64,000 bases of DNA from an uncultured Pseudomonadota bacterium (GTDB lineage: Bacteria > Babelota > Babeliae > Babelales > CAIQNR01). The DNA lies in contig CAYSQM010000003.1 of the NCBI GenBank assembly GCA_964433415.1, forward strand, positions 9,563 through 73,562. The letters are read 5' to 3'. The notes below the pieces were generated by a model. That model was not told where the DNA came from and made no database searches. It saw only the letters and a list, made by a program, of their open reading frames with translations. Positions 54,064 through 56,385 of the stretch are shown one piece after another; the stretch's first letter is position 1; every line of letters begins with the position of its first letter. Position numbers and translations under genes: made by a program.

Positions 54064-56385
54064 TTAAAGAATGTTTGCTAATGTTGTTTGCTTATCTAAA
54101 GAAATATTATTTTCTTCATTAGAGCGGCTATTTTGAACTTCTTTTTCAAGGGATTTATTAATTACACCTGGATCCCACTCTCTAGCTTGTTTCACTCTGG
54201 GTAACAGGACAGGCGCGCCATGCTTTTCTAATCCCAGCTCGATAATTAATTCCAAAAAATCCACTGGCTTAATGTCAATCTCTGCAGCTTGGTGAAAGAG
54301 ACAAGTAGCAGGGGTAAGGGCTGGCAATGTATTAATTTCTAAAATAACTACACGCTCTTTGCCTGTAGGGCTTTGCAATGCTTCCTGATAAAAACAGTCA
54401 ATACGACTATAACCAGAACAACCAATTACTTTATAGACCTTTTCCACTGTTTTTTGCACTAAAAGCATCGCTTCATGAGTCAGCGGTGCTGGCGTCTGAT
54501 TCTCTCCTGCTCCCGGTAAAAACTTTTCTTCAACCGATAATATCTCACCAACAGATAATGACCGACTTGGTGGCAAAGCTCTTGGAATAGCATTGCCAAT
54601 TACCCCAACCGTTAACTCCATACCAGGAATGTATTCTTCAACAAAAGCATGCGAAAAATTTATTAATAGATTATTAATGCCTGATTCAAGCTCCTGTTTT
54701 GTAGCAATTTTTGAAACACCAGTACTACAGCCATCATTATAAGGTTTAACAATAAGCGGCAAATGCAATGTATCTAAAATATTGTTCAGCACTTTTGGTT
54801 TATCATGGAACCAATCTTCTTTTGAAACTAAATAATTTTTTGGAACATCAAAACCTTGCGCATGCAAAAAATTATTAGTTTTATATTTATCCATACATAA
54901 AGCACTAGCTGCAATACCTGAGCCATTGTAAGGCAGATCAAGCATTTCTAAAGCTCCCTGGATTGAACCATTTTCACCACGGCCACCATGTAAACCAAGA
55001 AATACAAAGTCTGCAAATTTAGGTAAATCGGTCCATGCTATTTTTGTTGATCTATCAAGATCATGTTCAATTTCTGCTGTAGCATTATGTACCAATAAAC
55101 GCTTGTCTAAAGGGTAGATTTCAAACTTATCATCAACAAACAATGGCAATACTTCATAATTATGTCGTATAAGCTTGTAACAAACATTACGGCCAGATTC
55201 TAATGAAACTTCCCGTTCACGAGTATCTCCACCAAAAAGTACCGCAATACGCATCTTTTTTTCTCCTTGCACTACCGCTTGTTTTCTGGCGCTCATATCA
55301 AATTTTTTATTATGAGTTAAAAGAGCATAGGCATAAAGTTCTGTTTCAATAAGATGATTAATAAAGTCAGCATGTGACATATTAATACAAGCTGCTTGAT
55401 TAAAAACAAAACCTGATGGCGCCATTCCAGAAAGTGAATTAGGGTCAACAATGACCACTGTTCCATCTTTTTTTACAAACCCATCAATGCGGGCTATTGT
55501 TTTAAATTCTAAAACCTGCGACGTTTTTACGCAGGCGTCGTGAATATTTTGTTGTGTCTTTACTGAACAACGGGCCGGAGTAAATTTTAATGAACGACCC
55601 GGCATATATTTTTGAGCATAGTCATGAAAATGAGTTCCCTGTTCATGCACTACTTCAGTTGGAGGCAATAATAATGCGTTGCCATCTTTATCAAAAACCG
55701 TGATATGCGTAAACTCCATGCCTTCTATTTTTTCTTCTATTAAAGCTGATTGAGGGCGCGATTCAAAAACAAAAATTGCTTTTTCTAGCGCTGGCAATAA
55801 TTCTTCTTTTTTGAAAACAATAGTGATACCAAGACTTGAACCTTCGCTATTTGGTTTTACAACTAAGGGCAAAGCAAGGCCTTGTGCTTCAAGTTGAAGC
55901 CATAGGTTGTCGGAATTTTTATAATTTTCAAATACTTCGGGGGTGATTTCTATCCCATTTGGCACTGTAATGCCATTCATAATAAGCCATTTTTTTTGTT
56001 GGCTTTTATCCATTCCAAGAGCGCTGCCAAAAACTTTTGAGCCCAAATACGGTATGTTTAAAACCTCTAAAAACCCTTGTAAAATACCATCTTCTGCATA
56101 ACGCCCATGTACAGCAATATACATAAAATCGATTAAGTTTTTTAAATCATCCCAAGAGGTTTTAATTGCTTCAAGGTCAAGTCGTTGTAAAAAATCAGAA
56201 ATTTTACCCCTATGTAAAAAGCGCCATGGTAAAATAAAGAGTCTATTATCTTCTGTTTGAAACAATGGAATTGCTTCATAAATTTGCGTATCTAAATGAT
56301 CGCATATGGTACGACCAGAATTGAATGAAACTTCTCTTTCAAGGGATTTACCCCCCATTAACACACCGACTCTTAATTTTTGCAT
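54064..56385 (-). CDS. ddl: Tandem-fused double D-alanine--D-alanine ligase (two complete Ddl modules)
   Basis: Module 1 (aa 1 to about 365) carries LRVGVLMGGKSLEREVS, LVVKPNSEGSSLG, DYAQKY and IVDPNSLSGM. Module 2 (from M378) carries MRIAVLFGGDTREREVS, LIVKPYNDGCSTG, EEKF and ILEINTLPAL. Confidence 0.85.
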   Translation of the reverse strand: MQKLRVGVLMGGKSLEREVSFNSGRTICDHLDTQIYEAIPLFQTEDNRLFILPWRFLHRGKISDFLQRLDLEAIKTSWDDLKNLIDFMYIAVHGRYAEDGILQGFLEVLNIPYLGSKVFGSALGMDKSQQKKWLIMNGITVPNGIEITPEVFENYKNSDNLWLQLEAQGLALPLVVKPNSEGSSLGITIVFKKEELLPALEKAIFVFESRPQSALIEEKIEGMEFTHITVFDKDGNALLLPPTEVVHEQGTHFHDYAQKYMPGRSLKFTPARCSVKTQQNIHDACVKTSQVLEFKTIARIDGFVKKDGTVVIVDPNSLSGMAPSGFVFNQAACINMSHADFINHLIETELYAYALLTHNKKFDMSARKQAVVQGEKKMRIAVLFGGDTREREVSLESGRNVCYKLIRHNYEVLPLFVDDKFEIYPLDKRLLVHNATAEIEHDLDRSTKIAWTDLPKFADFVFLGLHGGRGENGSIQGALEMLDLPYNGSGIAASALCMDKYKTNNFLHAQGFDVPKNYLVSKEDWFHDKPKVLNNILDTLHLPLIVKPYNDGCSTGVSKIATKQELESGINNLLINFSHAFVEEYIPGMELTVGVIGNAIPRALPPSRSLSVGEILSVEEKFLPGAGENQTPAPLTHEAMLLVQKTVEKVYKVIGCSGYSRIDCFYQEALQSPTGKERVVILEINTLPALTPATCLFHQAAEIDIKPVDFLELIIELGLEKHGAPVLLPRVKQAREWDPGVINKSLEKEVQNSRSNEENNISLDKQTTLANIL

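What the first reader, a model, noticed from the sequence alone, without database searches (positions are those of the whole stretch)
54064..56385. Two complete D-Ala-D-Ala ligase modules fused in one 773-aa polypeptide, differing at the omega-loop Tyr position
Both halves have the full N-terminal, ATP-grasp and C-terminal Ddl architecture. Module 1 carries LRVGVLMGGKSLEREVS...VVKPNSEGSSLG...ARIDGF...IVDPNSLSGM. Module 2, starting at M378 near nt 55254, carries MRIAVLFGGDTREREVS...IVKPYNDGCSTG...SRIDCF...ILEINTLPAL. Ddl is known fused to MurC in Chlamydiae, but I do not know of a Ddl-Ddl tandem. At the omega-loop lysine-aromatic pair, module 1 has QKY (as in D-Ala-D-Ala-forming DdlB) whereas module 2 has EKF. 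Phe at this position characterises the depsipeptide (D-Ala-D-lactate)-forming ligases of intrinsically vancomycin-resistant lactic acid bacteria. The two modules may therefore have different substrate specificities, or one may be regulatory.
Basis: partly seen in the sequence, partly recalled or inferred. Interest (0 to 1): 0.55.

Follow-up and report, generated by a model that had tools for sequence, protein, structure and literature searches.

The report
Two-headed D-Ala-D-Ala ligase, widespread family
The gene really does encode two complete D-alanine–D-alanine ligases in one chain, but this is an ordinary member of an ancient two-headed ligase family found in many bacteria and in plants, and what its altered second head does has not been tested.

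Summary
ORF 54064-56385 (-) encodes a 773-aa protein with two full Ddl modules. Module 1 has Tyr and module 2 has Phe at the DdlB Tyr216 position.

It is not an assembly artefact. The identical ORF occurs in independent assemblies, and more than 100 full-length relatives exist in Dependentiae (TM6).

It is also not unprecedented. An exhaustive search shows the same tandem in Bacteroidota (including cultured Pontibacter), in MAGs labelled Patescibacteria and Anaerolineaceae, and in plants. A Coffea DDL is a full-length hit, and the plant DDL fusion is described in the literature.

Across 242 tandem proteins only three columns are fixed in both modules but with different residues. They are DdlB positions 150 (Ser vs Cys), 216 (Tyr vs Phe) and 270 (Asp vs Glu). 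All ATP, Mg and catalytic residues are otherwise intact in both modules, and module 2 is slightly the more conserved.

AlphaFold gives pTM 0.85 for the whole chain, which fits a single-chain mimic of the Ddl homodimer.

The D-Ala-D-lactate reading is not supported. Module 2 scores far below the Van and D-Lac family cut-offs, and no D-lactate dehydrogenase or VanX is nearby. Moss, which uses a plant tandem DDL, makes an Ala-Ala pentapeptide.

Most likely this is the organism's peptidoglycan D-Ala-D-Ala ligase. The role of the Cys/Phe head remains open.

The parts
54064..56385 (-). Complete tandem ddl-ddl gene (773 aa plus stop)
   Evidence: ORF list. Pfam and NCBIfam find two full Ddl modules. 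The identical protein occurs in independent assemblies.
55330..56385 (-). Module 1 (aa 1-352). Ddl with the canonical E16-S183-Y260 triad (DdlB E15-S150-Y216), but Asp314 at the Mg-ligand position E270 and Phe at L282.
   Evidence: S150 and Y216 are 119/119 and D270 is 119/119 in the Dependentiae set. Module 1 has E-S-Y in all 123 tandem cluster representatives scored.
55837..55839 (-). Ser183 codon, module 1 (DdlB Ser150 equivalent)
55606..55608 (-). Tyr260 codon, module 1 (DdlB Tyr216 equivalent, omega loop)
55444..55446 (-). Asp314 codon, module 1 (DdlB Glu270 equivalent, Mg ligand). Asp is fixed in module 1 of the whole family.
55255..55329 (-). Inter-module linker (aa 353-377), partly helical. 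There is no conserved internal start: M378 is I or L in 97 of 119 relatives.
   Evidence: AF2 secondary structure. Family linker median is 12 aa. M378 column.
54220..55254 (-). Module 2 (aa 378-722). A Ddl with intact ATP, Mg and catalytic residues but a re-modelled nucleophile pocket: E390-C553-F622 triad, Leu at Y210, T694/C695 at S281/L282.
54727..54729 (-). Cys553 codon, module 2 (DdlB Ser150 equivalent)
54520..54522 (-). Phe622 codon, module 2 (DdlB Tyr216 equivalent)
54064..54219 (-). C-terminal tail (aa 723-773) plus stop. Not covered by the Ddl models and disordered from about aa 736.
   Evidence: AF2 pLDDT is below 50 for aa 736-773. The tail lies outside the Ddl model matches.

Best explanation
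This is the Dependentiae (TM6) bacterium's D-alanine-D-alanine ligase for peptidoglycan synthesis. It belongs to an ancient family of single-chain, two-headed Ddl enzymes, the same family as plant DDL.

Free-standing Ddl enzymes work as homodimers. Here two anciently diverged Ddl paralogues are joined by a short linker and most likely pack against each other as an intramolecular pseudo-dimer.

Head 1 keeps the canonical Glu-Ser-Tyr substrate-gating triad. Head 2 keeps all ATP-grasp chemistry: the ATP lysines, Mg ligands, Arg255 and Lys215. Its nucleophile pocket, however, is fixed as Glu-Cys-Phe with Thr and Cys/Val replacing Ser281 and Leu282.

I infer that both heads are catalytically active, and that the physiological product delivered to MurF is D-Ala-D-Ala. 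The Cys/Phe head would then be a kinetically or specificity-differentiated second site, for example a more permissive nucleophile site, rather than a dedicated D-lactate ligase.

Shown: the architecture, the family membership, the residue patterns, the conservation, and the linkage to MurF, PASTA and alanine-transport genes.

Inferred: the pseudo-dimer packing, activity of both heads, and the product.
For: Architecture and reality of the gene.

Family breadth: an exhaustive phmmer search returned tandem proteins almost exclusively among its best 150 hits. Cluster members are named from Bacteroidetes MED-G17, Patescibacteria, Anaerolineaceae and Coffea. A genome scan gave 592 confirmed loci, including cultured Pontibacter and Rhodocytophaga.

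One ancient fusion: all module 1 sequences form one clade and all module 2 sequences form another, each with the same internal grouping.

Both heads are functional-looking. E15, H63, E68, K97, K144, E180, E187, K215, R255, D257 and N272 are each kept in at least 118 of 119 relatives in both modules. Module 2 is slightly more conserved than module 1.

Module-specific fixed differences occur only at DdlB positions 150, 216 and 270. Nine single-module Ddl and Van reference enzymes all have S150, E270 and S281.

Pseudo-dimer: AF2 gives pLDDT 89 and pTM 0.85 for the whole two-module chain. The linker median is 12 aa. The Ddl dimer is a recurrent feature, and extended C-terminal helices reach toward the partner subunit (PMC6899670).

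Peptidoglycan role: a Ddl-Ddl-MurF triple fusion exists. Ddl-Ddl-PASTA fusions and PASTA neighbours occur in Bacteroidota. MurE lies in the same window, next to an alanine symporter. A cultured Dependentiae has a complete mur pathway (PMC6561590).

D-Ala-D-Ala as product: a plant DDL (Coffea) carries the same signature. [quoted passage not shown]
Against: No enzyme of this tandem family has been assayed head by head in anything I could find.

In lactic acid bacteria, Phe at the Tyr216 position determines depsipeptide rather than dipeptide activity (PMC5996685). From my own recollection of Park, Lin and Walsh 1996, which I could not check here, Y216F and S150A mutants of DdlB gain D-Ala-D-Lac activity. 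Head 2 could therefore make something else.

Some TM6 genomes encode a lactate dehydrogenase of unspecified stereochemistry (PMC4776705).

Head 1 has Asp instead of Glu at a Mg ligand, so it may not be fully canonical either.

The pseudo-dimer rests only on pTM, linker length and analogy. I could not inspect coordinates or PAE.

I could not scan a whole Dependentiae genome for a second ddl, ldhA/vanH, vanX or alr.

The moss evidence comes from a different family member. I scored only the Coffea sequence, not the moss one.
Confidence: 0.6

Rival explanations
1. Head 2 is a dedicated ligase with a different product: D-Ala-D-lactate, or D-Ala joined to another D-amino or D-hydroxy acid. The enzyme would then make two products, one per head.
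For: Phe at the Tyr216 position is the determinant of depsipeptide activity in Leuconostoc and Lactobacillus Ddl (PMC5996685). Head 2 also changes Ser150 to Cys, Ser281 to Thr and Leu282 to Cys/Val. These changes are fixed over very large evolutionary distances, which indicates selection for a specific pocket. Positions 150 and 216 are two of only three columns that distinguish the modules. Some TM6 have a lactate dehydrogenase (PMC4776705).
Against: Head 2 scores 132 bits against a cut-off of 550 for the NCBIfam D-Ala-D-Lac equivalog, and 146 against 520 for D-Ala-D-Ser. No D-lactate dehydrogenase, VanX/VanY or racemase appears among conserved neighbours in 80 loci or in the 64-kb window. A plant DDL carries the same head, and the moss precursor found is Ala-Ala. 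The family occurs in diderm, intracellular and plastid settings, where glycopeptide pressure is implausible. By my recollection, which I did not check here, Phe-type Ddl enzymes and the Y216F mutant still make D-Ala-D-Ala.
Confidence: 0.22
2. One head is catalytically silent and serves only as an obligatory structural or regulatory partner. This could be head 2 with its broken triad, or head 1 with Asp at the Mg ligand. The protein would be a pseudo-enzyme/enzyme heterodimer in a single chain.
For: Each head carries one non-canonical active-site feature that is fixed family-wide. Ddl is dimeric. Arabidopsis T-DNA lines that disrupt only the first half show no plastid phenotype, and the authors suggest the C-terminal DDL alone may suffice (PMC9954125).
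Against: All ATP-binding, Mg-binding and transition-state residues are retained in at least 118 of 119 sequences in both heads. They are also retained across phyla at 30-40% overall identity. Pseudo-enzymes normally lose such residues. Both heads persist in very small genomes (Dependentiae, Patescibacteria). The omega loop of head 2 is one of the most conserved stretches of the protein (invariant E620 K621 F622 L623 P624 G625).
Confidence: 0.12
3. Artefact: two adjacent ordinary ddl genes were merged by a sequencing or assembly error that removed a stop codon.
For: Some single-module m1-like and m2-like proteins do exist in the databases.
Against: The identical ORF occurs in independent assemblies. 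There are 119 full-length relatives and 592 confirmed genomic loci, some of them (best 80 listed) in RefSeq isolate genomes. A plant orthologue also exists. The linker is short and conserved in length, and Met378 is not conserved, so there is no start codon for a second gene.
Confidence: 0.01

Closest known systems
Plant DDL (Arabidopsis At3g08840, Physcomitrium PpDDL, rice OsDDL), described as a fusion of two putative DDL enzymes
   Same: Same architecture and the same family. A Coffea DDL (XP_027176337.1, P0269) is a full-length hit to the window protein (35% identity, E 2.7e-63; identified). It has the same module order and the same signature: head 1 E-S-Y with D270 and F282, head 2 E-C-F with L210, T281 and V282. 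The plant fusion is described in PMC9954125.
   Different: Plant proteins are about 950 aa, with an N-terminal extension (presumed transit peptide) and insertions. They are nuclear-encoded and serve plastid peptidoglycan. In my NJ trees the plant sequence groups with an ~800-aa bacterial clade, not with the Dependentiae clade.
E. coli DdlB / DdlA (homodimeric single-module D-Ala-D-Ala ligases; PDB 2DLN, 3I12 and others)
   Same: Each module has the same three-domain ATP-grasp fold (Foldseek TM-score normalised to target up to 0.92). All ATP, Mg and catalytic residues are shared. Head 1 shares the E15-S150-Y216 triad.
   Different: Here the two modules sit in one chain. Head 1 has Asp at E270. 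Head 2 has Cys150, Phe216, Thr281 and Cys282. Each module alone scores just under the NCBIfam Ddl subfamily cut-off (221 and 226 against 243). No tandem Ddl has a solved structure.
Phe-type Ddl of intrinsically vancomycin-resistant lactic acid bacteria (Leuconostoc LmDdl2 F261, L. reuteri F258; D-Ala-D-Lac depsipeptide ligases)
   Same: Head 2 has Phe at the Tyr216-equivalent position. This is the residue reported to switch dipeptide to depsipeptide activity (PMC5996685).
   Different: Head 2 additionally has Cys at Ser150 and Thr and Cys at 281/282. It is not specifically related to LmDdl2: 1EHI is among the weaker PDB sequence hits to module 2 (E 2.5e-20, against 3e-36 for the best). It fails the D-Ala-D-Lac equivalog cut-off. 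It is fused to a Tyr-type head and occurs in diderm, intracellular and plastid lineages.
VanA/VanB-type D-Ala-D-Lac and VanC/VanG-type D-Ala-D-Ser ligases
   Same: Same superfamily and fold.
   Different: Scores are far below every Van model cut-off (for example VanA 183 against 775 and VanG 316 against 495 for the whole protein). There is no Arg at position 282. There are no vanH, vanX or vanT neighbours.
Chlamydial MurC-Ddl bifunctional fusion
   Same: A Ddl module fused to another peptidoglycan-precursor ligase in an obligate intracellular bacterium. Some sources mis-name the tandem proteins 'UDP-N-acetylmuramate--alanine ligase' through this resemblance.
   Different: There is no Mur ligase domain here. 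The PRK14573 score is 220 against a cut-off of 1015. The fusion partner is a second Ddl.

Membership tests
D-Ala-D-Ala ligase family (Ddl, Pfam PF01820 + PF07478, NCBIfam TIGR01205/PRK01372) | N-terminal Ddl domain plus ATP-grasp C-terminal domain | tested here: met
   Both domains are found twice (E 7e-47 and 1e-64). The structure model matches Ddl chains with TM-score normalised to target of 0.8-0.92.
D-Ala-D-Ala ligase family (Ddl, Pfam PF01820 + PF07478, NCBIfam TIGR01205/PRK01372) | Curated family score cut-off | tested here: inconclusive
   The whole protein passes (PRK01372 441 against 243; TIGR01205 408 against 246). Each module alone falls slightly below (221 and 226 against 243; 203 and 209 against 246).
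D-Ala-D-Ala ligase family (Ddl, Pfam PF01820 + PF07478, NCBIfam TIGR01205/PRK01372) | ATP, Mg and transition-state residues (K97, K144, E180, E187, K215, R255, D257, E270, N272 in DdlB numbering) | tested here: met
   All are present in both modules, except for the conservative E270D change in module 1.
D-Ala-D-Ala ligase family (Ddl, Pfam PF01820 + PF07478, NCBIfam TIGR01205/PRK01372) | E15-S150-Y216 hydrogen-bond triad | tested here: inconclusive
   Met in module 1 (E16, S183, Y260). Not met in module 2 (E390, C553, F622)..
D-Ala-D-Ala ligase family (Ddl, Pfam PF01820 + PF07478, NCBIfam TIGR01205/PRK01372) | ATP-dependent formation of D-Ala-D-Ala | not testable with these tools
   Needs an enzyme assay. 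Indirect support comes from the Ddl-Ddl-MurF fusion and the moss Ala-Ala pentapeptide.
Tandem (two-module) DDL family as described for plants | Two complete DDL units in one polypeptide | tested here: met
   The plant description is in PMC9954125.
Tandem (two-module) DDL family as described for plants | Full-length homology to a plant DDL, with the same module order | tested here: met
   Coffea XP_027176337.1 (P0269) is hit at E 2.7e-63 in 3 stretches and identified. Its m1 and m2 fall in the m1 and m2 clades respectively.
Tandem (two-module) DDL family as described for plants | Module-specific active-site signature (m1 S150/Y216/D270; m2 C150/F216/E270). This feature is defined by the present analysis, not by the literature. 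| tested here: met
   Window protein. Also 116 of 123 representatives, including Coffea.
Tandem (two-module) DDL family as described for plants | Plastid targeting / eukaryotic nuclear gene | tested here: not met
   There is no N-terminal extension, and the context is bacterial (tmRNA, SmpB, MurE). The window protein is therefore a bacterial member of the family, not a plant-type one.
D-Ala-D-lactate depsipeptide ligases (LmDdl2-type and VanA-type) | Phe (LmDdl2-type) or His (VanA-type) in place of the omega-loop Tyr | tested here: met
   Module 2 has F622 at the Tyr216 position. Module 1 does not.
D-Ala-D-lactate depsipeptide ligases (LmDdl2-type and VanA-type) | Curated D-Ala-D-Lac family score | tested here: not met
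   NF000206 scores 132 (m2) and 118 (m1) against a cut-off of 550. VanA scores 112 against 775.
D-Ala-D-lactate depsipeptide ligases (LmDdl2-type and VanA-type) | Source of D-lactate and/or a D,D-dipeptidase (vanH/ldhD, vanX) in the genome | tested here: inconclusive
   None was found among the annotated ORFs of the 64-kb window or among conserved neighbours of 80 loci. Whole genomes could not be scanned. Some TM6 have a lactate dehydrogenase of unstated stereochemistry.
D-Ala-D-lactate depsipeptide ligases (LmDdl2-type and VanA-type) | D-Ala-D-Lac product / depsipentapeptide precursor | not testable with these tools
   Needs an enzyme assay or precursor mass spectrometry.
Chlamydial MurC-Ddl bifunctional enzyme | Mur ligase domains N-terminal to the Ddl | tested here: not met
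   There are no Mur_ligase domains. PRK14573 scores 220 against 1015.

The most novel reading that the evidence does not exclude
The Cys150/Phe216 head, fixed from Dependentiae to plants, catalyses a distinct and so far unrecognised ligation. This could be D-Ala with a D-hydroxy acid or a non-alanine D-amino acid, or a proofreading or salvage reaction. All these lineages would need it alongside ordinary D-Ala-D-Ala synthesis. The tandem DDL would then be a genuinely bifunctional enzyme, and plastid, Bacteroidota and CPR peptidoglycan precursors would contain a minor, overlooked species.
Probability: 0.2. Interest if true: 0.7.

Novelty: new member of a known kind. Interest (0 to 1): 0.4.

Why it matters
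For this window, the finding resolves to an ordinary housekeeping gene of a Dependentiae bacterium.

The wider pattern is more useful. The 'plant-specific' DDL fusion is in fact an old bacterial invention, shared by Dependentiae, Bacteroidota, MAGs labelled Patescibacteria and Anaerolineaceae, and plants. Its two heads differ at exactly three universally fixed active-site positions: 150, 216 and 270.

That gives a precise, testable question. Why does a supposedly simple enzyme keep a Tyr-type and a Cys/Phe-type active site in one chain, even in minimal genomes?

It also offers culturable bacteria (Pontibacter, Chitinophaga) as easy systems for answering this, including for the plant enzyme. 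The answer bears on D-cycloserine action, on predicting vancomycin-type precursor remodelling from the Tyr/Phe rule, and on the origin of plastid peptidoglycan genes.

Tried and rejected
- **Sequencing-error hypothesis.** Rejected.
- **Internal start at M378.** Rejected, because the Met is not conserved.
- **Pseudo-enzyme reading of head 2.** Considered unlikely given the residue conservation.
- **Neighbourhood search.** I looked for D-lactate dehydrogenase, VanX, racemase or murF next to the gene in 80 loci. I found only Orn, AgcS, PriA and RuvA (Dependentiae) and PASTA proteins (Bacteroidota).
- **Foldseek against PDB.** It returns only single-module Ddl chains, so it says nothing about the module-module arrangement. 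The AF2 tool returns no coordinates or PAE, so the pseudo-dimer could not be superposed on a real Ddl dimer.
- **Plant sequence details from the literature.** Hirano 2016 and Machida 2006 are not held. The supplement of PMC9954125 has the sequence only as an image. A first cluster look-up of ~920-aa representatives returned no names. The plant member was finally found through P0269.
- **Literature searches for a bacterial tandem Ddl or a Dependentiae Ddl.** Nothing relevant was found.
- Its output is invalid because the numbering was shifted by trimming. It was redone.
- **NJ trees.** These are distance trees without support values. I use them only for the m1/m2 split and the coarse grouping.
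- **Not attempted.** I did not run a whole-genome census of ddl paralogues or ldhA, because only ±10 kb loci can be fetched.
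Full report
**1. The observation**

The window carries one uninterrupted ORF on the minus strand, 54064..56385, of 773 aa.

Pfam finds the Ddl N-terminal domain and the Ddl ATP-grasp C-terminal domain twice each. NCBIfam Ddl models match in two stretches, at about aa 1-352 and 376-722. 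The two halves are only 31% identical to each other (E 4e-51).

In the HMMER alignment with the 2DLN sequence of E. coli DdlB, the 'QKY' of module 1 lands exactly on K215-Y216. The 'EKF' of module 2 lands on the 'TKY' of DdlA-type enzymes.

I fetched real E. coli ddlB, ddlA, vanA and a vanG-like gene and re-aligned. Y260 and F622 are the Tyr216 equivalents.

**2. Not an artefact**

- The identical 773-aa protein is encoded on contigs assembled independently from different sequencing runs, and on an NCBI record.
- A word-indexed search returns 119 full-length relatives at 55-76% identity. Those that carry names are Candidatus Dependentiae, Babeliales or TM6.
- Met378 is Ile or Leu in 97 of 119 relatives, so there is no conserved internal start.
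- The linker is short throughout the family, with a median of 12 residues.

The window itself looks like a Dependentiae genome. It is about 33% G+C. It carries tmRNA and SmpB, H+-pyrophosphatase, ribonucleotide reductase and deoxynucleoside kinase, and MurE.

**3. The family is much larger than Dependentiae**

An exhaustive phmmer search of 1.84 billion cluster representatives gave 16,235 hits. Among the best 150, nearly all are tandem Ddl-Ddl proteins in three length classes:
- about 705-754 aa (41-59% identity);
- about 860-946 aa (37-41% identity);
- about 780-850 aa (32-37% identity).

A few are 1224-1285 aa.

Cluster look-ups name members from 'Bacteroidetes bacterium MED-G17', 'Patescibacteria group bacterium', 'Anaerolineaceae bacterium' and, importantly, Coffea species (XP_027176337.1, 956 aa).

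The best 80 include many Dependentiae MAGs and cultured Bacteroidota: four Pontibacter species and Rhodocytophaga aerolata. They also include MAGs labelled Chitinophaga, Saprospiraceae, Cytophagales and Cyclobacteriaceae.

[quoted passage not shown] It also lists At3g08840 as acquired from 'Chlamydiae/CFB bacteria' (PMC3493653).

I found no paper describing the bacterial tandem.

**4. Anatomy of the two active sites**

In 119 Dependentiae-type proteins, both modules keep E15, H63, E68, K97, K144, E180, E187, K215, R255, D257 and N272 (DdlB numbering) in at least 118 of 119 sequences.

- Module 1 keeps S150 and Y216 (119/119) but has Asp at E270 (119/119) and Phe at L282.
- Module 2 has Cys at S150, Phe at Y216, Leu at Y210 and Thr at S281 (each 119/119), and Cys at L282 (115/119).

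The same holds across phyla. Of 123 tandem representatives, 116 have E-S-Y in module 1 and E-C-F in module 2, and four have E-S-F in module 2. The Coffea protein has the full signature.

I then asked which alignment columns are more than 93% conserved in both modules of all 242 tandem proteins but with different residues. The answer was exactly three columns: 150 (S/C), 216 (Y/F) and 270 (D/E).

Nine single-module Ddl and Van reference enzymes all have S150, E270 and S281. Module 2 is slightly more conserved than module 1: mean pairwise identity 0.645 against 0.616 within the Dependentiae set, and 0.378 against 0.359 among all representatives.

Neither head looks like a decaying pseudo-enzyme. 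The divergence is concentrated at substrate-gating and metal positions.

**5. Evolution**

In distance trees all module 1 sequences form one clade and all module 2 sequences form another. Each clade has the same internal groups: a Dependentiae-type group, a ~900-aa Bacteroidota-type group and an ~800-aa group. This indicates a single ancient fusion followed by co-divergence.

Both modules of the plant protein fall in the ~800-aa clade.

Stand-alone m1-like and m2-like single-module proteins with the same signatures also exist. I could not examine their genomic context.

**6. Structure**

AlphaFold2, using an 87-sequence alignment, gives mean pLDDT 89 and pTM 0.85 for the whole chain. Only residues 736-773 are disordered. 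A pTM that high for a two-module protein implies a confidently fixed inter-module arrangement.

Foldseek finds only single-module Ddl chains, with TM-score normalised to the query of at most 0.40. No tandem Ddl has therefore been solved.

Free-standing Ddl enzymes recurrently form the same dimer, and extended C-terminal helices reach toward the partner subunit (PMC6899670). A short linker from the C-terminal helix of module 1 to strand 1 of module 2 fits a single-chain version of that dimer. This is an inference, because I could not inspect coordinates.

**7. Functional context**

- One ~800-aa-type protein is a Ddl-Ddl-MurF triple fusion (TIGR01143 323 bits against a cut-off of 289).
- Several ~900-aa-type proteins carry C-terminal PASTA repeats.
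- In 22 Bacteroidota loci the next gene is a 3xPASTA protein.
- In Dependentiae the gene sits next to oligoribonuclease (25 loci), and in 8 loci near a Na+/alanine symporter.
- In this window such a symporter lies directly upstream of murE.
- A cultured Dependentiae has a complete mur pathway (PMC6561590).

All of this places the enzyme in peptidoglycan precursor synthesis, feeding MurF.

**8. Does head 2 make D-Ala-D-lactate?**

The Tyr/Phe rule is real for lactic acid bacteria (PMC5996685), and head 2 changes two of the three triad residues. Several points argue against a D-lactate role:
- Head 2 scores 132 bits against a cut-off of 550 for the D-Ala-D-Lac equivalog, and is far below all Van models.
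- No D-lactate dehydrogenase or D,D-dipeptidase appears in the window or among conserved neighbours.
- The same head occurs in free-living diderm Bacteroidota and in a plant DDL.

Some TM6 do encode a lactate dehydrogenase (PMC4776705), so a side activity cannot be excluded. I put a distinct product for head 2 at about 20%.

**9. Verdict**

The gene is the Dependentiae representative of an ancient, widespread, two-headed Ddl family that includes plant DDL. It is most likely a single-chain pseudo-dimer that supplies D-Ala-D-Ala to MurF.

The claim of novelty for the architecture, and the D-lactate inference, are not supported.

What is new here is the family-wide, three-position signature, and the demonstration that bacterial and plant tandems are one family. 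This is a moderate point of interest and an easily testable one.

Noticed in passing
window 32724-34088 (+) and 34114-35586 (+): A Na+/alanine symporter (AgcS family) lies immediately upstream of murE (meso-DAP type), on the same strand with a 25-bp gap. A homologous symporter also lies within 8 kb of the tandem ddl in 8 other Dependentiae loci. This suggests imported alanine feeds peptidoglycan synthesis in these amino-acid auxotrophs.
   Followed up: partly
P0133, P0137, P0164, P0185 (1224-1285 aa); Bacteroidota loci such as L053 3588-4361: Some ~900-aa-type tandem Ddl proteins carry C-terminal PASTA repeats. In 22 Bacteroidota loci the downstream gene is a membrane-anchored 3xPASTA protein. 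A cytoplasmic ligase coupled to a peptidoglycan-binding, normally extracytoplasmic domain is odd and unexplained.
   Followed up: partly
P0243 (1262 aa) and P0241 (987 aa): A Ddl-Ddl-MurF triple fusion exists (MurF confirmed with TIGR01143), and so does a GNAT-Ddl-Ddl fusion, both in the ~800-aa clade.
   Followed up: partly
P0269 (Coffea DDL) in the NJ trees: Both modules of the plant DDL group with the ~800-aa bacterial clade. The only named member of that clade is a Patescibacteria MAG. They do not group with the Bacteroidota clade, although the literature suggests FCB or Chlamydiae donors. These are distance trees only, without support values.
   Followed up: partly
P0129, P0186, P0206, P0210 (m1-like); P0134, P0192, P0263, P0265 (m2-like): Single-module proteins exist that carry the module-1 or module-2 signature. 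They may be split (two-gene) versions of the tandem, or fragments. In the tree, P0192, P0263, P0265 and P0210 form their own deep branch.
   Followed up: partly
window 52317-53873 (+) and 51124-52278 (+): A 518-aa ORF has a GIGGGGGH motif, no significant family match, and only a faint hit to the GT28 C-terminal domain (E 0.006). It follows a GT4 glycosyltransferase that resembles monoglucosyl-diacylglycerol synthase. The two may form a glycolipid-synthesis pair. They lie directly downstream of the ddl-ddl gene on the opposite strand.
   Followed up: partly
window 91-2925 (+), 2997-6683 (+), 11444-13066 (+): Three large ORFs (944, 1228 and 540 aa) have no Pfam match at all.
   Followed up: no
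window 18021-21572 (-): An unusually long (1183 aa) protein has only a C-terminal MscS mechanosensitive-channel core. The N-terminal ~1000 residues are unassigned.
   Followed up: no
window 57275-57667 (-) and 57740-58189 (-): tmRNA (tag peptide ANAFAYIPQTNTGVSAYAAA) lies directly downstream of smpB.
   Followed up: no
loci L009, L012-L014, L016, L017, L021, L035 and others: Several MAGs are titled 'uncultured Pseudomonadota bacterium' or 'Candidatus Saccharimonadales', yet carry tandem Ddl proteins 52-60% identical to the Dependentiae protein. Their record titles are probably taxonomic mislabels.
   Followed up: no
P0185 (1224 aa): One tandem-PASTA representative has a degenerate second head: G150, R216, D210 and R215. 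It may be a lineage in which module 2 has lost or changed its function.
   Followed up: no
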